A stretch of DNA of 26,628 bases from an uncultured Gammaproteobacteria bacterium. Lineage in GTDB: Bacteria; Patescibacteriota; Microgenomatia; UBA12405. The stretch lies in contig CAZNDF010000001.1 of assembly GCA_964571775.1 (NCBI GenBank), forward strand, positions 1 through 26,628, in the 5' to 3' direction. Positions 19,171 to 26,628 of the stretch are shown here, piece by piece; the first letter of the stretch is position 1, and each line of letters begins with the position of its first letter. A model generated the notes under the pieces. It was not told the origin of the DNA and did not search any database. It saw only the letters and a list, made by a program, of their open reading frames with translations. The position numbers and the translations under genes are program-made.

Positions 19171-20301
19171 ATGAAATCAAGAAAAATTAAATCAATATTA
19201 CTTTTGTTGATAGTGGTTTTGTTGTTGGGAATTGGTGGAGTCGGTGGTTTGGTATTAGGAAGAAAATTTTTACCTAAAGATTTGTTGATTCAAAATAAAA
19301 TTGAAGTGGTAGATGAGGAATCGGTGGTGACAAGGGTGGTAGAAAAATCAACCCCGAGCGTAGTAACTGTGTCAATAAACAAAGAAGTGACAACAAACTC
19401 TTTTGATGCGTTTAAACAGCTTTTTGGGATAGCTCAACAACCAGTTGAAGTACAAAAAATAGAGAGAGATATTGGGACTGGTTTTATCATAAGTAGTGAT
19501 GGTTTGATTGTAACCAATAAGCATGTGGTGTCAGACACTTTGGCAAAATATAAAGTAGTAATTGGTAAAGATGAAACGGTAGAAGTAGTAAATATTTATC
19601 GTGATCCAATAAGTGATTTGGCAATACTAAAAGTAGACAAAACTGGCTTAACCCCGGTAGATATGGGTGATTCAGATCAACTTAAAGTTGGTCAAACAGT
19701 GATTGCAATTGGAACTGCGTTGGGGGAGTTTCGATCAACAGTAACTAAAGGAGTGGTTTCTGGTCTAGGGAGAGGAATCACTGCCGGTGACTATACAACA
19801 GGAATAGAAAAACTAGAAGATGTAATTCAAACAGATGCAGCTATAAATCCAGGAAACTCTGGCGGTCCATTGTTTGATTCTTCTGGGAAAGTGGTGGGCG
19901 TGAACGTTGCGACATCGCAAAATGGTCAGAGTATTGGTTTTGCATTACCGATAAATTTAGTTAAGTCGAGCGTAGATAATTTTCGGAAAACTGGTGAATT
20001 TGACCGACCTTACTTTGGGGTAGCTTATCAAATGATTACCAAGCAAGCAGCTTTACTTAACGAAGTGCCAGCTGGGGCTTATGTTCAGACAGTACTAAAA
20101 GACAGTCCAGCGGAAAAGGCAGGTTTAAAAATTGGAGATATTATTACTGAAATTGACGGTAAAAAATTAGCTGATACTGAGGATACTTCGATTGCTGGCA
20201 TGGTGAATCAGAAAAAAATAGGGGATAGCCTTAAAGTGAAATATTTTAGAGATAAAACCGAGACAGAAGTTGAAGTCAAATTAGAAAAGAAGAGTAGTTA
20301 G
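19171..20301 (+). CDS. htrA: HtrA/DegP-like trypsin serine protease with PDZ domain
   Basis: TM anchor; [34 protein letters not shown]; C-terminal PDZ. Confidence 0.95.
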
Positions 20302-21026
20302 TTTTTATTTTCTTCTACAGGTTGATCAAGAACAGTGAGTTCTAAAAGTAAATCGTCTAAATATCCAGCCATGATTTCATCGAGATTATTGAATGATTTT
20401 TCAATACGGTGATCTTTTATTTGATTACGAGGATAATTGTAAGTACGAATTTTATCAGCTCGGGTTGACTGGCTAATATTAGAACGACCACCAGCAACTT
20501 GAGCAGCTCTTTTTTCTTCTTCTAATTGCCAAAGCTTATTTTTGAGAAGTTCTAGGGCGATTTCTCGATTTTGTTGTTGATAACGTTCAGTACGAACATC
20601 GAACATTAAACCAGTAGGTTTATGGACTAAATGGATAGCGGTGGAAACTTTGTTGACGTTTTGGCCGCCGTTGCCGCCGGCACGACAAGCAGTAATGACG
20701 ACATCGTCCATACTGAAATTAACCTCTTTGGAATCAATTTTTGGCATAACGGCAATGGAAGCAGTAGATGTTTGAATTCGGCCACGTTTTTCGGTTTCCG
20801 GAATTCTTTGAACCCGATGAGTGCCAGCCTCATATTTTAGTTGGTTGTAAGAGTCGATACCAGATATTTGAATAACGAAACCATCAATTTGACTGACTTT
20901 CCAACCAACTTTATTAGCGTAGCGGATATACATGTTCATGAGGTCTTGGGCCCAAAGAGTGGCTTCTTGACCACCAGGACCTGGATGGAATTCCATAATA
21001 GCAATATTAGGGTTTATTGTTGGCAT
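20298..21026 (-). CDS. prfA: Peptide chain release factor 1-type protein lacking N-terminal domain 1 (242 aa)
   Basis: [22 protein letters not shown] (RF1 PxT motif), [14 protein letters not shown]; begins at the domain-2 boundary. Confidence 0.85.
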
Positions 21027-21032
21027 AAATTG

Positions 21033-21061
21033 ATTATAAGGGTTGGCTTAAAATTATTGAA
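21033..21061 (-). promoter_or_regulatory. Promoter for short RF1, TTCAAT-17-TATAAT, 6 nt before ATG
   Basis: Perfect -10 at 21033-21038 on the minus strand. Confidence 0.6.
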
Positions 21062-21066
21062 TAAAT

Positions 21067-21108
21067 AAACAAAAAGCCGGCGAAATTACAAAATAATCTT
21101 CACCGGCT
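21067..21108 (-). terminator. Intrinsic terminator after rpmE
   Basis: Minus strand AAGCCGGTGAA...TTCGCCGGCTT followed by a T-rich tail. Confidence 0.75.
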
Positions 21109-21116
21109 TAAAGTAA

Positions 21117-21371
21117 CTAGTTTGATTTTTTAGTAGCTTTTTTTGAAGCTTTTGCTTCGATATTAGCCTTACCTTTGGCCATTTTTTCGTTAAATTTATC
21201 AATTCTTCCTTTAATGTCAACGAATTTTTGTTGACCAGTGAAGAATGGGTGACATTTTGAACAAACGTCAACGTCAATTTTAGCTGAGGTTGAACCAGTA
21301 GTGAATTTGTTGCCGCAAGCACAGCTGACTTGGCAATCAGAGTAGTATTGTGGATGGATTCCTTGTTTCAT
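21117..21371 (-). CDS. rpmE: 50S ribosomal protein bL31 (Zn-binding type)
   Basis: [27 protein letters not shown] and GRIDKF. Confidence 0.97.
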
Positions 21372-21410
21372 AGGGTTTATTGTATCAGATTTCTTTATAA
21401 ATTGAAACTT

Positions 21411-21632
21411 TTATTGGTTTATAAAAAAGCTAATGGGGTCAATTCTGTGAGGGCAGTCTTGAGGGCTTAAATAGCAATCGATCTTTTCGCCATCTGTCGT
21501 TTGTCCAGTCATTTTTCTAACAATCAAATTTTGAAGACTAAAATCACAAAAGTATTCTTCATTAGTGTAGTTTCCTGCTTCTGGGCTAGAATCAGTAGGG
21601 AGTAAATAGCCACAACTTTTTTCTGGGTTCAT
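21411..21632 (-). CDS. Small hypothetical protein with 4 Cys
   Basis: 73-aa ORF starting 1 nt after the hisS stop; fills the intergenic gap. Confidence 0.5.
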   Translation of the reverse strand: MNPEKSCGYLLPTDSSPEAGNYTNEEYFCDFSLQNLIVRKMTGQTTDGEKIDCYLSPQDCPHRIDPISFFINQ

Positions 21633-21633
21633 A

Positions 21634-22884
21634 TTATTTAATTTGGCTGATTAAATCTTCAAAAGAAACTATTATTTGTTGGGAAGTTTCAAGTTTCTTT
21701 AGAGTAATTTGGTTGTTACTGGCTTCATTAGTGCCAATGATAGCCAAATAGGGAATATTCAGTGATAAAGCATATTTTATTTGTTTACCTAGTTTGTCGT
21801 TATCCGGATAAATAATACTAGAAATATTTTCTTGACGGAGTTTAGAGGTTAAATCTAGTATCTCTTTTTGTGTTTCAGTCCCAAGATTGGCGACTAAAAT
21901 TTTAGTAGTAGATTTATTTCCTTTTGGTAAAAGATCTAAAGTTTGAATAACATCAACGACCCTTTCAAAACCAAATGAGAAACCAACAGCAGGTACTTGG
22001 GGACCACCTAGAGTAGAAACTAAGTTGTCGTATCGACCACCACCTCCGATAGCTCCAATTTTTGGTTCAGTGACAGTAACTTCAAAAATAGTACCAGTGT
22101 AATAGTCGCAACCGCGGACCAAAGTTGGGTCAAAGATAAAAGCCGTTTGAGGTACACCAAGACCCTTTAAAAGATCTAAAACTTGTTTTAGATTTTCATC
22201 TGGTTGAGCTTGTTTGATATATTTAAAAATTTGATCAATTTGGCCAATAGATAGACCTTTGGAAGTGAGTTCATCTTTTACTCCATTCTCACTAATTTTG
22301 TCTAATTTATCAAGAGATTGTAGTACTGAATTTTGGCGTTCATTAATACCACTTTGAGATAAAATTGAGGATAAGACGGTGCGGCTATTAATTTTAATGA
22401 TAGCGTTTTTAAAACCCAATTTTTGAACACCTTGATAAATAACAGAAATTATTTCAGCATCAGCGATGGGGGAGCTGGTACCAAAAATATCTATATCACA
22501 TTGGACAAACTCCCGATAGCGGCCTTTTTGAGTATTTTCGGCACGCCAAACTGGTTGAATTTGATAGCGGCGAAAGGGTAAAGATAATTGATTATTATAG
22601 ATAGCTAAAACTTTGGAGGTGGGGACGGTTAAATCATAACGGAGGCCAATTTCTCGGTCGCCATTATCTTTGAAAAAGTAACCTAATTTATCATCAGTTT
22701 CACTACCATATTTACCTTTGAGGACAGAAGAATATTCTAAAGCAGGTGTTTCTAGTGGTTGAAAGCCGCAGGTTTCAAAAAGACTAGTTAAAGTATTTTT
22801 GACGTAATTTCTGACATACATGTCAGATGGTAAGAAATCTCGGAAGCCTTTTAGAGTTTGAGATTTAATATTTGATTGATTCAT
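21634..22884 (-). CDS. hisS: Histidine--tRNA ligase
   Basis: KGFRDFLP, LRYDLTVP, motif 2 WRAENTQKGRYREFVQCDID, GGGRYDNL, motif 3 GFSFGFER and anticodon domain KLGKQIKYA. Confidence 0.97.
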   Translation of the reverse strand: MNQSNIKSQTLKGFRDFLPSDMYVRNYVKNTLTSLFETCGFQPLETPALEYSSVLKGKYGSETDDKLGYFFKDNGDREIGLRYDLTVPTSKVLAIYNNQLSLPFRRYQIQPVWRAENTQKGRYREFVQCDIDIFGTSSPIADAEIISVIYQGVQKLGFKNAIIKINSRTVLSSILSQSGINERQNSVLQSLDKLDKISENGVKDELTSKGLSIGQIDQIFKYIKQAQPDENLKQVLDLLKGLGVPQTAFIFDPTLVRGCDYYTGTIFEVTVTEPKIGAIGGGGRYDNLVSTLGGPQVPAVGFSFGFERVVDVIQTLDLLPKGNKSTTKILVANLGTETQKEILDLTSKLRQENISSIIYPDNDKLGKQIKYALSLNIPYLAIIGTNEASNNQITLKKLETSQQIIVSFEDLISQIK

Positions 22885-22900
22885 AGTTGAATTTTAACAT

Positions 22901-23815
22901 TTAAATGGTTTGGGCTTGATATTTATTATTAACTGAATTAAAAAATAGTTTTTTGATTTTGGTGGAATCGACATCAGTGACTATTTGACTATTGTTTGAA
23001 CTTTTTTGTTTGATTAAAGTTTGTCCAGCAGAGTTGACTGAAACAAAATTATTTTCAGTTTTAAAAAGTTTAGGATTAATGGCGTAAGCGATGGCTAAGA
23101 CATCATACATGACCCCGCCTTTAAAGCCACCGTATTTTTTATCATATTGGTAATAGCTGATATATGAATTAACAATTTTTTTGAAATTATTGCCAATATC
23201 AGTGTTTTTGAATTGATTAAATTCGTTTGAAGTAAACATCACTTGGCGACAAATATTAATTGGGATGAGGACCTTTGGAGTGGAAAATTCTAGAATTATT
23301 TTTAGTGCCAAAGGGTCGTTGTAAACATTAAATTCAGCTTTTGAAGTGATATTGCCTTTTTGGTTAAAAACGCCACCAAGAATGATTATTTGATTAATTT
23401 TAGAAATTAAATCAGGACGGATTATCCCTAATAAAGCTAAGTTAGTACTTGGTCCAAGACAAATAATGTCAAAACTTTTCGTTGGGTTTTGCGATAATGA
23501 ATTGATCAAGAACTGGATGGCAGATGTTTTTTGAGACTTTGTTTTTAAATTAACATCAAAACCTCCAAGACCATTAAACCCATGTGATTTAGCAAACACG
23601 GGTTTTTTATTTAATGGGAGGCTAGCACCCTGATAAACAGGGATATTAGAATTCAATATTTGAAGAATGCTGAGAGTATTTTTGGTGGTATTTTTGATGT
23701 TTGAATTACCATAAGTAGTAGCAATTCCAATGATATTTAATTTTGAAGATATGGCTAAAAGGATAGCTAATGCATCGTCTACACCAGGGTCAGTATCAAT
23801 GATTATTTGTTTCAT
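22901..23815 (-). CDS. Nucleoside hydrolase (IUNH family)
   Basis: IIDTDPGVDDA, HG.NGLG, CLGPSTNLA and AEFNVYNDP. Confidence 0.93.
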   Translation of the reverse strand: MKQIIIDTDPGVDDALAILLAISSKLNIIGIATTYGNSNIKNTTKNTLSILQILNSNIPVYQGASLPLNKKPVFAKSHGFNGLGGFDVNLKTKSQKTSAIQFLINSLSQNPTKSFDIICLGPSTNLALLGIIRPDLISKINQIIILGGVFNQKGNITSKAEFNVYNDPLALKIILEFSTPKVLIPINICRQVMFTSNEFNQFKNTDIGNNFKKIVNSYISYYQYDKKYGGFKGGVMYDVLAIAYAINPKLFKTENNFVSVNSAGQTLIKQKSSNNSQIVTDVDSTKIKKLFFNSVNNKYQAQTI

Positions 23816-23817
23816 AA

Positions 23818-25329
23818 TTAGTAGGATATTGAAGAGATATCTGTTGGTTTTTTAATTAATAAAGTTTTAAAACCTAGATCAGCGGCAGGTTGAATATCGG
23901 TATCTTGTTGATCTCCAATTGAGGTGATATTTTGCGGTAGGTAAAGTCTAGAAATTTTTTTAAAGATTTCTTTTTTAAATTGAAAATCTTCACCTGAATA
24001 AATAGTTTCAAACTTATCTTTGATTCCTAAATAACTAATCACTTGATTAATCCAAATCATAGGAGAAGAGGATAGAAGAATTAATTTAAATTGTGGAGGG
24101 ATATTCAAGATAGCTTCGATTGATTTTTGATAGTCTTTAACTATATCTCTGGGATTAATATTCCAGACATTATTAAAATAATCATTTCGACTAATCTGAT
24201 ACCTATTAGATAAAAATTGACTAGCGCCGATCGGATCAGAAATAGCCTGTTTAAATATTTCTATGGCTTGATTCGTGGAAATATTTTCTTTTTGGCAAAT
24301 AAAATTAATTATATTTTGGTTAACAGTAGATTCTAAAGTTGATCCAGAATATCCGTTATTTTTACCATCGAGTTGGTATAAAGTTCCGTCCATGTCAAAA
24401 ATCATTACTTGTCGTGTCGCTTCTGATTCTACAATTTGAGAACATTGGTCTAAGTAATCAGTCACGTTAAATTTTATATTTACAGGGATATTCCGTTTTC
24501 GACTGTATGGAAGGGGAAAGCCACGATTTATTAGATCTTTAAAAGTTATTTTTCTACCAAGAATGTTTTCCCAGTTTAAGACTAGTTCTTTTTGAGCCTT
24601 AATTAAATTAAGACTGATTCCAAAAAGGTTTTGGTCGTCAAGGCTAGCTGATTCACCATCGCTCCATGGGTAGATATAAGGCTCGGATAAAGCAACTCGG
24701 TTGGACTTACTAATATTTACGACTCGTCCACCGAGAAAACTGATGTCTCGGAGATCAATCCAATCCATAAGATTAGTAACCGGTTCAAGATCACCAATAA
24801 AACCTACAGACTCAATATTTTCGTCTTTTATACCGATTTGCGACAAGAGGTTTTTGGCGGCTTTAATAGTCCCGCCAGTAAATAATCCATCATCAGCTAA
24901 AATTATTTTTCTTTTTTCAATATCAGGAATTTGGCTAGCGATTTTTTCTAGTTGTATTCTAAAGTCAGAAAATCCTTGACGAGGGATTTTGACCCCATCA
25001 GCTTTTCGGCTAATACCAAAACGAAAGAAACGGTCTTGATATTTTGAGTCAGTTTCAATTTGAGATAAAAGACATCTGTCTAAACAGATACAAATGCAAT
25101 CATTATCTTGTGATAATTTATTTATAATTTGTTTTTCGAGAGCTTGATTAATGTCGTCTTCTGAGTAAGCTCTAACTTCAATTTTTTCTACTGGTTGAAG
25201 ATTTTGTCGAAAAATATCAACAACTGATTCAAAATAGTCATTAGCTATTTTTTGGGGAAAATTGCCGATTTTATTTTGAATACCAATAGTATCTTGGGTA
25301 ATAACATAATTTTGTTTTTCTTGATTCAT
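23818..25329 (-). CDS. Type I phosphoribosyltransferase-like domain fused to a HAD-family hydrolase (503 aa)
   Basis: PRPP loop IILADDGLFTGGT; HAD motif I FDMDGTLY, II LLSSS, IV IGDQQDTD. Start moved to ATG 25329 because the upstream extension overlaps a terminator. Confidence 0.75.
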   Translation of the reverse strand: MNQEKQNYVITQDTIGIQNKIGNFPQKIANDYFESVVDIFRQNLQPVEKIEVRAYSEDDINQALEKQIINKLSQDNDCICICLDRCLLSQIETDSKYQDRFFRFGISRKADGVKIPRQGFSDFRIQLEKIASQIPDIEKRKIILADDGLFTGGTIKAAKNLLSQIGIKDENIESVGFIGDLEPVTNLMDWIDLRDISFLGGRVVNISKSNRVALSEPYIYPWSDGESASLDDQNLFGISLNLIKAQKELVLNWENILGRKITFKDLINRGFPLPYSRKRNIPVNIKFNVTDYLDQCSQIVESEATRQVMIFDMDGTLYQLDGKNNGYSGSTLESTVNQNIINFICQKENISTNQAIEIFKQAISDPIGASQFLSNRYQISRNDYFNNVWNINPRDIVKDYQKSIEAILNIPPQFKLILLSSSPMIWINQVISYLGIKDKFETIYSGEDFQFKKEIFKKISRLYLPQNITSIGDQQDTDIQPAADLGFKTLLIKKPTDISSISY

Positions 25330-25339
25330 AGTTTTTATT

Positions 25340-25418
25340 AAAAAATAAATCCCCGCAGGGAAGCGGGGATTGATTAATAATAAAAAGATTTTCAGGCGGC
25401 CAAAAACCCCGCGGTTTT
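25340..25418 (-). promoter_or_regulatory. Putative transcription attenuator 2 (protector, antiterminator, terminator)
   Basis: Terminator AATCCCCGC-ttccct-GCGGGGATT-TATTTTTT (25340-25371). Upstream GCGGGG (25407-25412) can pair with CCCCGC. AAAACC-gcgg-GGTTTT hairpin sequesters it. Confidence 0.6.
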
Positions 25419-25469
25419 GACAGCCACGGTATGGCAATGGTTTTTAATAAATTTAATTTTATTTTTCAT
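25392..25469 (-). CDS. Putative leader peptide 2, MKNKIKFIKNHCHTVAVKTAGFLAA (25 aa)
   Basis: Translated manually; His-Cys-His at codons 11-13; overlaps the antiterminator segment. Confidence 0.5.
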   Translation of the reverse strand: MKNKIKFIKNHCHTVAVKTAGFLAA

Positions 25470-25510
25470 ATTTTTTGGGTTGCCATCATTAAAATCATGA
25501 TGGACTTATG

Positions 25511-25585
25511 GGTGGTATATCGGACTTGAACCGACAACCTCAGCTTTCACAGAGCTGCGCTCTAACCAATTGAGCTAATACCACC
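25511..25585 (-). tRNA. tRNA-His(GUG), copy without encoded CCA
   Basis: Cloverleaf with encoded G-1 opposite C73, anticodon stem CAGCT/AGCTG, loop CTGTGAA and T-loop GGTTCAAGTCC. Confidence 0.95.
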
Positions 25586-25617
25586 AGGTAAGTTTGCTAA
25601 AGCAAATTAAAGTAAGA

Positions 25618-25650
25618 GAAATATGATTCAAAGAATTTGAATTATATTTC
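25618..25650. repeat. 15-bp AT-rich inverted repeat upstream of tRNA-His
   Basis: GAAATATGATTCAAA-gaa-TTTGAATTATATTTC; 14/15 Watson-Crick pairs. Confidence 0.7.
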
Positions 25651-25673
25651 ATTTTAAAGTGCTCCTAGTCCTT

Positions 25674-25741
25674 AAAAAAACAAAAAACCCGCCAGTTGGC
25701 GGGGTCAAGATACGTTGAAATCCACCAACTTAAAAGTTAGT
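25674..25741 (-). promoter_or_regulatory. Putative histidine-responsive transcription attenuator 1
   Basis: Minus strand: protector CTAACT-ttta-AGTTGG; antiterminator GTTGGTGG (25722-25729) with CCGCCAAC (25695-25702); terminator CCCGCC-aact-GGCGGG-TTTTTTGTTTTTTT. Confidence 0.8.
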
Positions 25742-25777
25742 GTGATGATGACTTGAACGTAATGTTTTGGTAAACAT
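25730..25777 (-). CDS. His leader peptide 1, MFTKTLRSSHHHTNF (15 aa)
   Basis: ATG TTT ACC AAA ACA TTA CGT TCA AGT CAT CAT CAC ACT AAC TTT TAA, 6 nt downstream of a -10 box and abutting the attenuator. Confidence 0.8.
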   Translation of the reverse strand: MFTKTLRSSHHHTNF

Positions 25778-25783
25778 ACTTGT

Positions 25784-25811
25784 ATTTTACTGAGGAAACA
25801 GGAAATGTCAA
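25784..25811 (-). promoter_or_regulatory. Sigma70 promoter, TTGACA-16-TAAAAT, for the His leader
   Basis: TTGACA = reverse complement of 25806-25811; TAAAAT = reverse complement of 25784-25789. Confidence 0.75.
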
Positions 25812-25831
25812 ATTTTTTGATAAAATCAGTT

Positions 25832-26539
25832 ATGAATATTGTAAAAATGGAAAATAATGAGTGGTTATTAGAAATTGATTTGGATGGTGGAAGAATTTAT
25901 AAACTGGCTTTTGGTGATCAGATTATTTTGGGAACTTTTGAAAGAATTGATGGTAAAAAAGGGAATACACATTTATGTGTTCCGAATTTTGCTAATGAGG
26001 GAGTGGAGAAATATGGGTTTGTATTTCATGGGCCGTTTAGAAATACTACTTGGAAAATATTAGGGAAATCGGATACGGCTTTAGAAATTAGGTGTGAAAT
26101 TGATGGTTTATCCGTAACGCAGTTTTTTAGATTGAAGGACAGTTTTAGTCAAGATATTGAGGTGTTAAATACTTCTAATGAAAAAAAGAGAGTTAATTTG
26201 GCAGTGCATAATTATTGGGATACAGAATTTGGTTGGCAGGGGACTAAACTAAATGGGGTTGATATTACTGAAGGGATCAAAACAAATCCAGAAGTATCTT
26301 TGAAAGATTTAAATACTATTGAGATAGTAGGTAAAAAAAATATTTTTTGGAAAGTGGAAAATTTTAAATTAGCTAAATTATGGACTGGAATTAAACAAGA
26401 AAAAGGGGTTAACTCTTATGATCGAAAATATATTTGTATTGAACCAGAAATGGAGTTTGAGGGGTTTGTGGAAACAGAAAAAAGTTGGCTTTTACCGGGA
26501 CAAAGAATTTTTTCAAAGCAAAGTATTGGACTAGAATAG
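25832..26539 (+). CDS. Aldose 1-epimerase / galactose mutarotase-like protein
   Basis: HLCVPNF, FHGPFRN..W, NLAVHNYW and YICIEP. Start moved to ATG 25832 (TGaTAAAAT 5 nt upstream) because ATG 25805 overlaps the divergent -35. Confidence 0.8.
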   Translation: MNIVKMENNEWLLEIDLDGGRIYKLAFGDQIILGTFERIDGKKGNTHLCVPNFANEGVEKYGFVFHGPFRNTTWKILGKSDTALEIRCEIDGLSVTQFFRLKDSFSQDIEVLNTSNEKKRVNLAVHNYWDTEFGWQGTKLNGVDITEGIKTNPEVSLKDLNTIEIVGKKNIFWKVENFKLAKLWTGIKQEKGVNSYDRKYICIEPEMEFEGFVETEKSWLLPGQRIFSKQSIGLE

Positions 26540-26543
26540 TTTT

Positions 26544-26621
26544 TGGGGTGGTATATCGGACTTGAACCGACAACCTCAGCTTTCACAGAGCTGCGCTCTA
26601 ACCAATTGAGCTAATACCACC
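26544..26621 (-). tRNA. tRNA-His(GUG), copy with encoded CCA
   Basis: Identical body to 25511-25585; ends ...ATACCACC-CCA. Confidence 0.95.
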
Positions 26622-26628
26622 ATGAGGA

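What the first reader, a model, noticed from the sequence alone, without database searches (positions are those of the whole stretch)
21411..25811. Candidate His-starvation unit: leader1 > tRNA-His > leader2 > PRTase-HAD > nucleoside hydrolase > hisS > small ORF
Seen: all elements are co-oriented with tiny gaps (2 nt PRTase-HAD to hydrolase, 16 nt hydrolase to hisS, 1 nt hisS to small ORF) and no obvious internal terminator. Inference: a probable amino-acid auxotroph couples production of both tRNA-His and its synthetase to His-tRNA charging through two attenuators in series. The nucleotide-salvage genes may have inserted between the regulatory leader and hisS. E. coli pheST is the known precedent for attenuation of a synthetase; a combined tRNA plus synthetase circuit is, to my knowledge, undescribed.
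Basis: inference. Interest (0 to 1): 0.8.

Follow-up and report, generated by a model that had tools for sequence, protein, structure and literature searches.

The report
Tandem histidine attenuators gating tRNA-His operon
Two mini-genes rich in histidine codons, each followed by a switchable transcription stop, flank a histidine tRNA gene. They most likely raise expression of the tRNA, two ribose-handling enzymes and (by read-through) the histidine-charging enzyme when charged tRNA-His runs low in this tiny-genome bacterium.

Summary

Leader 1 (MFTKTLRSSHHHTNF) is a textbook leader-peptide attenuator. A covariance model of it hits 72 of 132 genomes of the order. The 29 best hits in other genomes all lie just upstream of tRNA-His and/or hisS, and each has 2-4 His codons.

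Leader 2 (..NHCHTV..) hits 52 of 132 genomes, usually in tandem with leader 1.

Two corrections apply:
- hisS has a conserved extended -10 box (TGTTAAAAT) 6 nt before its ATG. This organism's mRNAs are largely leaderless, so hisS probably also has its own promoter. The attenuators would add to its expression, not solely control it.
- The PRTase-HAD/nucleoside-hydrolase pair is not a random insert. Distant homologues again sit before hisS, and one sits behind a His leader with no hisS.

No usable RNA data exist, so co-transcription is untested.

The mechanism is classical. I found no paper describing it on a tRNA gene or in CPR bacteria. This scan has noted the same device in at least 93 other genomes.

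The parts
25784..25811 (-). Promoter P1: TTGACA, 16 nt, TAAAAT. The -10 box ends 6 nt before the leader 1 ATG, so the start is leaderless.
   Evidence: scores it 11 of 12. The same -10-to-ATG spacing holds in 25 of 30 homologous leaders. Leaderless starts are common genome-wide.
25730..25777 (-). Leader 1 ORF, MFTKTLRSSHHHTNF plus stop. The His codons lie at 25750-25742.
   Evidence: All 30 aligned homologues have a 13-18 codon ORF with 2-4 His near its end.
25711..25761 (-). Hairpin 1:2 (anti-antiterminator). The inner helix pairs CACACTAAC (25744-25736) with GTTGGTGG (25729-22).
   Evidence: It is the MFE fold without a ribosome. Across 30 sequences 95.5% of cells pair, and one pair switches G-C (20) to A-U (9).
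25695..25729 (-). Antiterminator 2:3: GTTGGTGG (25729-25722) pairs with CCGCCAAC (25702-25695).
   Evidence: It forms (-14.5 kcal/mol) when a ribosome is placed on any His codon, and not when the ribosome is at the stop codon. It pairs in 96.6% of cells, against 21-61% in slid controls, but shows little covariation.
25674..25703 (-). Terminator 1: CCCGCC AACT GGCGGG plus T-run.
25510..25585 (-). tRNA-His(GTG), copy B, with encoded G-1. It lies behind attenuator 1.
   Evidence: ARAGORN and Rfam at 69.2 bits.
25392..25469 (-). Leader 2 ORF, MKNKIKFIKNHCHTVAVKTAGFLAA plus stop. The His codons are at 25439-37 and 25433-31.
   Evidence: The ORF is conserved with NH[CRQ]H in the genus and HH[TPSNR]H in other genera.
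25395..25429 (-). Leader 2 switch region. It holds CCGTGG (a); the hairpin arms GGCTGTCAAAA (b) and TTTTTGGCCGCC (d); and the loop CCGCGGGG (c), which can pair with the terminator's 5' arm CCCCGC.
25338..25371 (-). Terminator 2: AATCCCCGC TTCCCT GCGGGGATT plus T-run. It ends 9 nt before the PRTase-HAD ATG.
23818..25329 (-). PRTase-like / HAD phosphatase fusion, 503 aa.
   Evidence: Pfam and NCBIfam. The model has pLDDT 89. The HAD domain is nearest to 5'-nucleotidases. The N-domain is nearest to type I PRTases at Z 8-9.
22901..23815 (-). Inosine-uridine-type nucleoside hydrolase, 304 aa.
   Evidence: Pfam IU_nuc_hydro, E 1.7e-74. It is RihC/RihA-like but below the equivalog cut-offs.
22891..22899 (-). 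Extended -10 box TGTTAAAAT, 6 nt before the hisS ATG. It is the probable own promoter of hisS, giving a leaderless mRNA.
21634..22884 (-). hisS, histidyl-tRNA synthetase, 416 aa.
   Evidence: Pfam tRNA-synt_His at E 9e-44, plus the HGTP_anticodon domain.
21411..21632 (-). 73-codon ORF, 1 nt after hisS. It is probably a real small protein with four Cys.
   Evidence: A homologue sits at the same place after hisS in G016, with 40% identity over 50 aa (E 1e-8) and four Cys conserved. No family matches it.
26544..26621 (-). tRNA-His(GTG), copy A, identical to copy B. It lies outside the attenuated unit. Its upstream promoter lies beyond the end of the contig.
   Evidence: In relatives this copy is preceded by TGTTAAAAT, 16-17 nt upstream.
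25805..26539 (+). Divergent epimerase-like gene, 244 aa, a conserved neighbour of the unit.
   Evidence: Pfam Aldose_epim is below its cut-off. The synteny holds in most relatives.

Best explanation
The unit senses charged tRNA-His through two ribosome-mediated (leader-peptide) transcription attenuators in series.

Attenuator 1:
- P1 starts a leaderless transcript at the ATG of leader 1.
- If His-tRNA(His) is plentiful, the ribosome runs to the stop codon, which lies 1 nt before segment 2. It masks segment 2, so the terminator forms.
- If no ribosome is loaded, segment 1 pairs with segment 2, and the terminator again forms.
- If the ribosome stalls on the HHH codons, segment 1 is covered and segment 2 is free. 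Segment 2 pairs with CCGCCAAC and prevents the terminator. RNA polymerase then reads into tRNA-His copy B.

Attenuator 2 repeats the decision. A stall at HCH covers CCGTGG and the 5' arm of the hairpin. This frees GCGGGG to pair with the 5' arm of terminator 2. Transcription then enters the PRTase-HAD and nucleoside hydrolase genes. With no terminator in between, it continues into hisS and the 73-codon ORF.

hisS additionally has its own leaderless promoter for basal expression. tRNA-His copy A lies outside the attenuated unit.

Shown here: the anatomy, its conservation, the pairing potentials and covariation of helix 1:2, and the synteny with tRNA-His and hisS.

Inferred: translation of the leaders, the response to histidine, read-through into hisS, and the activity of the hisS promoter.
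For: - Leader 1 model R1 hits 72 of 132 genomes of the order, mostly once per genome. The 29 best hits in other genomes all lie directly upstream of tRNA-His and/or hisS.
- All 30 aligned leaders (window plus these 29) have an ORF with 2-4 His. The stop codon lies a few nt (1-3) before segment 2 in 28 of them. In 25 the ATG begins 12-15 nt after the first base of a -10-like hexamer, so 6-9 nt follow the hexamer.
- CAT and CAC interchange at the His positions while the neighbouring codons vary.
- In helix 1:2, 95.5% of cells pair (92.5% for the whole structure with the terminator) and there is a G-C/A-U compensatory switch, against 29-61% paired in slid controls.
- Folding with ribosome masks gives the antiterminator only for stalls at His codons.
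- Leader 2 model R2 hits 52 of 132 genomes. About 35 of these have it in tandem with R1 around tRNA-His.
- Either leader abuts hisS directly in relatives.
- In G030, G019, G026 and G036 only 9-19 nt separate the T-run from tRNA-His, so there the tRNA can only be reached by read-through.
- HisG and HisD were not found.
Against: - There are no expression data. The RNA-labelled runs held only a few short contigs that may be DNA or come from relatives.
- hisS has a conserved promoter-like box at its start.
- The window also has TAAAAT and TATAAT boxes between terminator 1 and tRNA-His. Both targets may therefore be transcribed independently.
- The antiterminator helices are conserved but show almost no covariation.
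- Leader 2's antiterminator is only 6 bp. Equilibrium folding forms it even without a ribosome. Its alternative hairpin has modest z-scores.
- Leader 2 has no promoter or Shine-Dalgarno sequence of its own. It must be translated from within, or after processing of, the tRNA precursor.
- The leaders are missing from many genus members, including the closest one, G021. They are therefore dispensable.
Confidence: 0.7

Rival explanations
1. The attenuators control only tRNA-His copy B and the two cargo enzymes. hisS is in practice an independent, constitutively expressed leaderless gene. Read-through from upstream contributes little to it.
For: - TGTTAAAAT-N6-ATG is conserved before hisS whatever the upstream gene.
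- The same box precedes the unregulated tRNA-His copy in relatives.
- A -10 box lies 5-8 nt before the ATG in 25% of long ORFs, against 10% in a control window, and Shine-Dalgarno motifs are not enriched.
- hisS is essential yet sits behind two terminators.
Against: - No terminator lies between the hydrolase gene and hisS, and the gap is 16 nt.
- In several relatives a His leader sits 45-180 nt before hisS with nothing else to regulate.
- The module-to-hisS order is kept in distant lineages.
Confidence: 0.2
2. Leader 2 is not a sensor. Its terminator simply ends the tRNA-His transcript. The reading frame is kept open only because the RNA hairpins are conserved.
For: - It lies 7-40 nt after the tRNA.
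- Much of the peptide conservation (..AGFLAA) coincides with the 3' arm of a hairpin.
- The antiterminator is short.
Against: - His codons are kept at a fixed distance from the RNA elements. Synonymous CAT/CAC changes occur there, and the middle residue varies (C, R, Q, T, P, S, N) across 18 genera.
- In G005 leader 2 stands alone, with its own -10 box, in front of hisS and with no tRNA.
- Genes follow within 10-200 nt on the same strand in every case examined.
Confidence: 0.07
3. The leaders sense uncharged tRNA-His directly by RNA-RNA pairing, in the manner of a T-box, and not through a translating ribosome.
For: - His codons could act as a specifier.
- Segment 2 (GGTGG) resembles the 5' strand of the tRNA-His acceptor stem.
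Against: - No T-box or other Rfam family matches, even at E up to 10.
- The element is about 80 nt and has no Stem I-like platform.
- An in-frame ATG, a stop codon and a leaderless promoter geometry are all conserved, and a T-box would not need them.
Confidence: 0.02
4. Chance: the His codons and the hairpins have no regulatory role.
For: AT-rich intergenic DNA holds many short ORFs and -10-like boxes (23 promoter-like sites against 23.0 in shuffles).
Against: The element recurs at the same locus in 72 of 132 genomes, with the His codons kept. No comparable element lies elsewhere in the genome.
Confidence: 0.01

Closest known systems
hisL leader / his operon attenuator of E. coli and Salmonella (Rfam His_leader RF00514)
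   Same: A short ORF with clustered His codons. It has mutually exclusive 1:2, 2:3 and 3:4 hairpins and an intrinsic terminator, and it senses charged tRNA-His through ribosome stalling.
   Different: There is no sequence or Rfam similarity. It has three His codons, not seven, and a leaderless start. It controls a tRNA gene, an aaRS and salvage-type enzymes, not histidine biosynthesis, in an organism where HisG and HisD were not found.
pheM-pheST attenuator of E. coli
   Same: A leader-peptide attenuator in front of the cognate aminoacyl-tRNA synthetase.
   Different: It concerns another amino acid and is a single attenuator. No tRNA gene lies inside the unit. It has a Shine-Dalgarno-led leader.
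Predicted His leader peptides before the hisS paralogue and hisZ in the Bacillus cereus group (Naville and Gautheret 2010, PMC2965389) and before his operons of some Firmicutes (PMC9413887)
   Same: His-codon leader plus terminator in front of HisRS-family genes outside the Proteobacteria. These are also known only from comparative genomics.
   Different: They belong to a different lineage and have a different sequence. They control paralogues or biosynthesis genes. They hold no tRNA gene and are not arranged in tandem.
Leaderless leader peptides predicted before aaRS and biosynthesis genes in Deinococcus deserti (PMC4007540)
   Same: The leader peptide begins at the 5' end of the transcript, and its targets include aaRS genes.
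   Different: That paper does not report histidine or a tRNA gene as a target. Those cases have TSS data, and this one has none.
T-box riboswitch before hisS in Firmicutes
   Same: The same regulatory logic: low charging of tRNA-His gives read-through into hisS.
   Different: A T-box binds the tRNA directly and needs no translation. No T-box is present here.
PRPP-dependent ribofuranosyltransferase plus HAD phosphatase modules of capsule synthesis (Hib Bcs3 CriT/CrpP, PDB 8A0C; 7SHG; PMC10299916)
   Same: A PRTase-like domain joined to a HAD phosphatase. That suggests transfer of ribose 5-phosphate from PRPP to an acceptor, followed by dephosphorylation.
   Different: The structural matches are weak (Z 6.2 for the N-domain). 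The protein here is small and apparently soluble, the acceptor is unknown, and the gene context is histidine-linked, not polysaccharide-linked.

Membership tests
Leader-peptide (ribosome-mediated) transcription attenuator | A short ORF with clustered codons for the sensed amino acid. | tested here: met
   Leader 1 has HHH and leader 2 has HCH. All 30 leader 1 homologues have 2-4 His. Of 30 leader 2 homologues, 29 keep 2-3 His codons at the same spot; 27 match H(x)H, two (G074, G083) carry HxxH, and G067 has HH with no ORF found.
Leader-peptide (ribosome-mediated) transcription attenuator | An intrinsic terminator between the leader ORF and the regulated gene. | tested here: met
   Both terminators were found by the scan and are followed by T-runs.
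Leader-peptide (ribosome-mediated) transcription attenuator | An antiterminator that shares bases with the terminator's 5' arm. | tested here: met
   Leader 1 has an 8-9 bp helix that pairs in 96.6% of cells, against 21-61% in slid controls. Leader 2 has only a 6-bp GCGGGG/CCCCGC helix, which is weaker support.
Leader-peptide (ribosome-mediated) transcription attenuator | An upstream segment, overlapping the regulatory codons, that sequesters the antiterminator strand. | tested here: met
   For leader 1, helix 1:2 shows a compensatory G-C/A-U change. For leader 2, a hairpin whose arms differ between genera is predicted in most of the 30 sequences (27 by my count), but its z-scores are modest.
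Leader-peptide (ribosome-mediated) transcription attenuator | Geometry: a stall at the regulatory codons frees the antiterminator, and a ribosome at the stop codon blocks it. | tested here: met
   Constrained folding of leader 1 shows this. For leader 2 it holds for a stall at the second His codon only.
Leader-peptide (ribosome-mediated) transcription attenuator | Read-through responds to the charging of the cognate tRNA in vivo or in vitro. | not testable with these tools
   The public RNA runs are uninformative.
Rfam His_leader (RF00514) | A match to the covariance model. | tested here: not met
   No hit at E up to 10 over 21300-26628.
T-box riboswitch (RF00230) | A match to the covariance model, with Stem I, a specifier and the T-box sequence. 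| tested here: not met
   No hit at the gathering score or at E up to 10.
Type I phosphoribosyltransferase (N-domain of the 503-aa protein) | A PRPP-binding loop: acidic residues followed by a G/T-rich turn. | tested here: met
   ILADDGLFTGGT is present, with D146, D147, G148, G152 and T154 invariant in 16 homologues. The Pfam Pribosyltran score of 21.3 bits is below the 26.3 cut-off.
Type I phosphoribosyltransferase (N-domain of the 503-aa protein) | The PRTase core fold. | tested here: inconclusive
   Eleven of the top 12 VIA-align matches are proteins of the PRTase fold, but Z is only 7.9-9.0. Foldseek finds nothing below E 0.02.
IU-type nucleoside hydrolase | A Pfam IU_nuc_hydro match and the N-terminal DxDxxxDD motif. 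| tested here: met
   251.6 bits against a cut-off of 34.2. DTDPGVDD lies at residues 7-14.
Class II histidyl-tRNA synthetase | A catalytic core plus an HGTP anticodon-binding domain. | tested here: met
   tRNA-synt_His at 150 bits and HGTP_anticodon at 57 bits.

The most novel reading that the evidence does not exclude
The genes that different relatives carry between the second His attenuator and hisS form a histidine-starvation regulon for getting usable L-histidine, or for a still unknown ribosyl-imidazole chemistry, in bacteria that cannot make histidine. The variable genes are:
- here, a PRTase-HAD fusion plus a nucleoside hydrolase;
- elsewhere, a histidine-racemase-like/GNAT fusion with an M15 dipeptidase, M20 deacylases, and proteins of unknown type.

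On this reading the PRTase-HAD/hydrolase pair acts on a histidine-related riboside, not on ordinary nucleosides.
Probability: 0.25. Interest if true: 0.8.

Novelty: new variant of a known kind. Interest (0 to 1): 0.55.

Why it matters
- If the model holds, a tRNA gene is under feedback by its own charged product through a leader peptide. That is a direct homeostat for aminoacyl-tRNA supply, and I could not find it described in the literature.
- It shows that classical attenuation with leaderless leader peptides operates in the barely studied, uncultured CPR/Patescibacteria.
- It gives a regulatory handle on genes of unknown role. Whatever sits behind these leaders is likely needed when histidine is short. 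That makes the PRTase-HAD/nucleoside hydrolase pair, the racemase-like fusions and the deacylases testable candidates for how obligate auxotrophs secure histidine.

Tried and rejected
- **Rfam.** Searches at the gathering score and at E up to 10 found only the two tRNAs. There was no His_leader and no T-box.
- **Public RNA runs.** X19, X25 and X28 were laid on 21000-26628. They gave only a few short contigs, flagged as probably DNA or carrying many differences. One 127-nt contig (25536-25662) and one 165-nt contig (25235-25399) match exactly but cannot be shown to be RNA. This gives no verdict on co-transcription.
- **Other attenuators in the genome.** A genome-wide scan for other amino-acid-run leaders with terminators gave only two candidates besides leader 1, on C3 and C27. 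Both are terminators at gene ends.
- **Equilibrium folding of the full leaders.** It always keeps the terminators, so I folded transcripts cut before the terminator's 3' arm.
- **The promoter scan.** It has no discriminating power in this AT-rich DNA, with 23 sites against 23.0 in shuffles. The hisS promoter claim rests on conservation, not on the scan.
- **Spread of the PRTase-like domain.** A search of the order found it in only 3 of 132 genomes. It is a sporadic cargo there, and wider relatives had to come from the protein collection.
- **Fold searches of the whole 503-aa model.** They return only HAD matches.
- **His_biosynth (PF00977).** It gives two partial 50-60-residue matches, which I read as unrelated barrel proteins.
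Full report
**What is there**

The finding lies on the minus strand of a 0.66-Mb, 34.5% G+C, 82%-complete genome. DNA runs place it in wastewater and anaerobic-digester metagenomes. Its size, its relatives and the only named homologue (a Woesebacteria protein) point to a CPR/Patescibacteria bacterium. Reading 5' to 3' on that strand:

- Promoter-like TTGACA-16-TAAAAT (25811-25784). Six nt later comes the ATG of a 15-codon ORF, MFTKTLRSSHHHTNF (25777-25730).
- One nt after its stop comes GTTGGTGG (25729-25722).
- Then the terminator CCCGCC-AACT-GGCGGG with a T-run (25703-25674).
- tRNA-His(GTG) with G-1 (25585-25510).
- A 25-codon ORF, MKNKIKFIKNHCHTVAVKTAGFLAA (25469-25392).
- A second terminator (25371-25338).
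- A 503-aa PRTase-like/HAD fusion (25329-23818).
- A nucleoside hydrolase (23815-22901).
- hisS (22884-21634).
- A 73-codon ORF (21632-21411).

Pfam supports the protein names, with the PRTase match below its cut-off. A second, identical tRNA-His lies at 26621-26544, beyond a divergent epimerase-like gene. The contig ends 7 nt further on.

**Leader 1 is a conserved attenuator**

I fetched the hisS neighbourhood of 20 relatives. A short ORF ending in ..NHHH[TA]N[FL] recurs upstream of tRNA-His. It is followed by GTTGG[CT]GG and then CCCGCCAAC-N-GGCGGG-T(n). This holds in other families of the order too.

- **Distribution.** A covariance model of the 81-nt core (R1) hit 72 of 132 genomes of the order, mostly once per genome.
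- **Location.** The 29 best hits in other genomes all lie immediately upstream of tRNA-His and/or hisS.
- **Leader ORFs.** All 30 aligned instances encode a 13-18 codon peptide with 2-4 His near its C-terminus. In 28 the stop codon lies a few nt (1-3) before segment 2. In 25 the ATG begins 12-15 nt after the first base of a -10-like hexamer, so 6-9 nt follow the hexamer. That is the geometry of a leaderless mRNA.
- **Helix 1:2.** The last His codon and the next three codons pair with segment 2 in 95.5% of cells (92.5% for the whole structure with the terminator). One pair switches between G-C (20 sequences) and A-U (9). Slid controls pair in 29-61% of cells.
- **Antiterminator.** Segment 2 with CCGCCAA pairs in 96.6% of cells, against 21-61% in slid controls. 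It is too conserved to show covariation.
- **Folding with a ribosome footprint.** I cut the transcript before the terminator's 3' arm and blocked a footprint. The antiterminator (-14.5 kcal/mol) forms for a stall at any of the three His codons. A ribosome at the stop codon, or no ribosome, leaves the terminator strand free.

This is the trp/his-type four-segment logic.

**Leader 2**

The second ORF and its RNA elements are conserved after tRNA-His in the genus. The peptide reads NH[C/R/Q]HTV there. Model R2 hit 52 of 132 genomes, almost all in the window's family. In about 35 genomes R1 and R2 lie in tandem on one strand around tRNA-His.

In other genera the peptide reads HH[T/P/S/N/R]HTV. CAT and CAC interchange at the His positions, and the ATG and the stop codon are kept.

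The RNA offers three pairings:
- CCGTGG lies just after the His codons.
- A hairpin has arms that differ in sequence between genera but stay complementary.
- The hairpin's loop, CCGCGGGG, has the same sequence as the terminator's 3' arm, so it can pair with the 5' arm CCCCGC.

With a ribosome on the second His codon, the GCGGGG/CCCCGC helix is the predicted fold. With a ribosome at the stop codon, nothing competes with the terminator.

Support is weaker than for leader 1. The antiterminator has 6 bp. Equilibrium folding forms it even without a ribosome. The hairpin z-scores are modest. The ORF has no promoter of its own in the window.

Leaders do abut hisS directly in relatives that lack the two enzymes. 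This holds for leader 1 in G012, G122, G118, G023, G117 and G081, and for leader 2 with its own -10 box in G005. In G014 and G030 the order is leader 1, tRNA-His, hisS, with gaps of 22 and 56 nt. That is probably the older arrangement.

In G030, G019, G026 and G036 only 9-19 nt separate the T-run from the tRNA. There the tRNA can only be reached by read-through.

The leaders are not universal. The closest relative, G021, and several others have tRNA-His, an antisense epimerase-like gene and hisS, without either leader.

**hisS probably has its own promoter**

The 16-nt gap before hisS reads TGTTAAAAT-TCAACT-ATG, an extended -10 box 6 nt before the start codon. The same 20 nt precede hisS in at least 14 members of the genus. 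The upstream gene varies among them: the hydrolase, an M15 peptidase, an M20 deacylase, a HAD protein or the antisense epimerase-like gene. In relatives TGTTAAAAT also precedes the leaderless-unit-independent tRNA-His copy.

Genome-wide, Shine-Dalgarno motifs are not enriched before long ORFs (5%, against 7% in a control window). A -10-like hexamer ends 5-8 nt before the ATG in 25% of them, against 10% in the control. rpmE, downstream, has TGATACAAT 7 nt before its ATG.

I therefore read hisS as having a basal, leaderless promoter, to which attenuator-controlled read-through adds. The other half, absence of spanning transcripts, could not be tested. The RNA-labelled runs gave only a few short contigs, possibly DNA. 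The window also has TAAAAT and TATAAT boxes between terminator 1 and the tRNA, so an internal tRNA promoter cannot be excluded either.

**The cargo**

The genes between leader 2 and hisS differ among relatives:

| Genomes | Genes between leader 2 and hisS |
|---|---|
| Window, G019, G129 | PRTase-HAD plus hydrolase |
| G004 | An unknown 237-aa protein plus hydrolase |
| G024, G017, G022 | A histidine-racemase-like/GNAT fusion (NCBIfam HisR/CntK models, E 1e-26 and 1e-21, below cut-offs) plus an M15 dipeptidase |
| G020, G013, G093 | M20 ArgE/DapE-type deacylases |
| G072, G068 | DapF-like two-cysteine proteins |
| Other genera | Small unknown ORFs |

The PRTase-HAD family is small, with 15 homologues, and occurs in only 3 of 132 genomes of the order. 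Even so, distant members (37-41% identity) again sit in PRTase-HAD, hydrolase, hisS order:
- One follows a TrpR-family gene.
- One follows a leader (MNTFVSNLVHHTNRV), a terminator and tRNA-His.
- One follows an HHIHTH leader and terminator, with a deacylase-type gene and the hydrolase, and no hisS at all.

The pair is therefore linked to histidine control in its own right.

The model (pLDDT 89) shows a HAD domain nearest to XMP and pyrimidine 5'-nucleotidases. The N-domain's best structural neighbours are type I PRTases, at only Z 7.9-9.0. It has an invariant PRPP-loop motif. PRPP-dependent ribosyl transfer followed by dephosphorylation has a precedent in capsule enzymes (PMC10299916). The acceptor here is unknown.

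**Auxotrophy**

HisG and HisD were not found in this 82%-complete genome. HisD was found in none of 38 genomes of the genus, 20 of them at least 90% complete, while all 14 control genomes rang.

**Comparison with what is known**

The device works like the hisL and pheM attenuators, but it is not a member of Rfam His_leader and it is not a T-box. Leader peptides before HisRS-family genes have been predicted in bacilli (PMC2965389). His leaders have been predicted before his operons in some Firmicutes (PMC9413887). Leaderless leader peptides before aaRS genes have been predicted in Deinococcus deserti (PMC4007540). My searches of the held library found no report of such a device on a tRNA gene, in tandem, or in CPR bacteria.

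Earlier notes of this scan describe the same kind of attenuator in at least 93 other genomes, and the same kinds of cargo. I reached the main results before reading them and re-tested what I use.

**Verdict**

This is a real, conserved, two-stage histidine attenuator unit. Its certain targets are a second tRNA-His copy and two enzymes of unknown histidine-linked role. hisS is a likely read-through target that also has its own promoter. The mechanism is classical, while its application and lineage are new. Everything about expression remains inferred.

Noticed in passing
window 20298-21026 (-): The release-factor gene encodes only 242 aa. It has the end of the PCRF domain, the RF-1 domain with GGQ, and a PET (PxT-type) motif, but no N-terminal domain 1. 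Relatives have the same short form (241 aa in G016, 228 aa in L116).
   Followed up: partly
whole assembly G000; examples at window 25784-25777, 22899-22882 and 21386-21369: Shine-Dalgarno motifs are not enriched before long ORFs (5%, against 7% in a control window). A -10-like hexamer ends 5-8 nt before the ATG in 25% of them, against 10% in the control. TGnTAAAAT-N6-7-ATG looks like the standard leaderless start of this organism.
   Followed up: partly
window 25333-25321 and 22888-22876 (-): The 13-mer AACTATGAATCAA occurs exactly twice in the 0.66-Mb assembly, at the start codons of PRTase-HAD and of hisS. Both proteins begin MNQ. It may be a footprint of the event that placed the cargo between leader 2 and hisS.
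   Followed up: partly
window 26544-26621 and 25510-25586 (-): The two tRNA-His copies are 100% identical over 77 nt. Copy A encodes CCA. Copy B reads CCCAT after the acceptor strand, so it lacks a full CCA. The contig ends 7 nt beyond copy A, probably because the repeat broke the assembly. G004, G121 and G019 have the same two-copy layout.
   Followed up: partly
window 25618-25650 and 25590-25603 (-); L057, L058, L059, L071, L076 and L079 between terminator 1 and tRNA-His: The spacer between attenuator 1 and the tRNA holds further hairpins. Relatives share AGGNCAAAATTT...AAATTTTGCCT and an acceptor-stem-like GGTGAAACG...CGTTTCTACCAC element. In G015 (L055) the spacer holds fragments of the 5' half of tRNA-His. 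Their function is unknown; processing sites or duplication remnants are possible.
   Followed up: no
window 25729-25695 (-): The antiterminator helix (GGTGG with CCGCC) resembles the acceptor stem of tRNA-His (GGTGG with CCACC). The leader could have arisen from a partial duplication of the tRNA.
   Followed up: no
window 21411-21632 (-); L019 923-1156: The 73-codon ORF after hisS has a 77-codon counterpart after hisS in G016. Four cysteines and the motifs C-x-Y-x-LPT, FCD and MTG are conserved. No family match was found.
   Followed up: partly
L116 3606-3917: In a distant genome the PRTase-HAD, hydrolase, hisS operon is preceded by a TrpR-family (HisR-like) gene. The 3' end of that gene overlaps a weak R1/R2 match and a terminator.
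   Followed up: partly
window 25805-26539 (+) and relatives: An epimerase-like gene (Aldose_epim, below its cut-off) is a near-constant neighbour of tRNA-His and hisS in the genus, always on the opposite strand. In G021, G011 and G018 it lies antisense between the tRNA and hisS, with under 35 nt to the hisS start.
   Followed up: no
window 19171-20301 (+): A 376-aa HtrA/DegP-like trypsin-PDZ protease gene converges on the release-factor gene with a 4-nt overlap of the two ORF ends. The name is judged from the sequence only, and the same gene type appears in L116.
   Followed up: no
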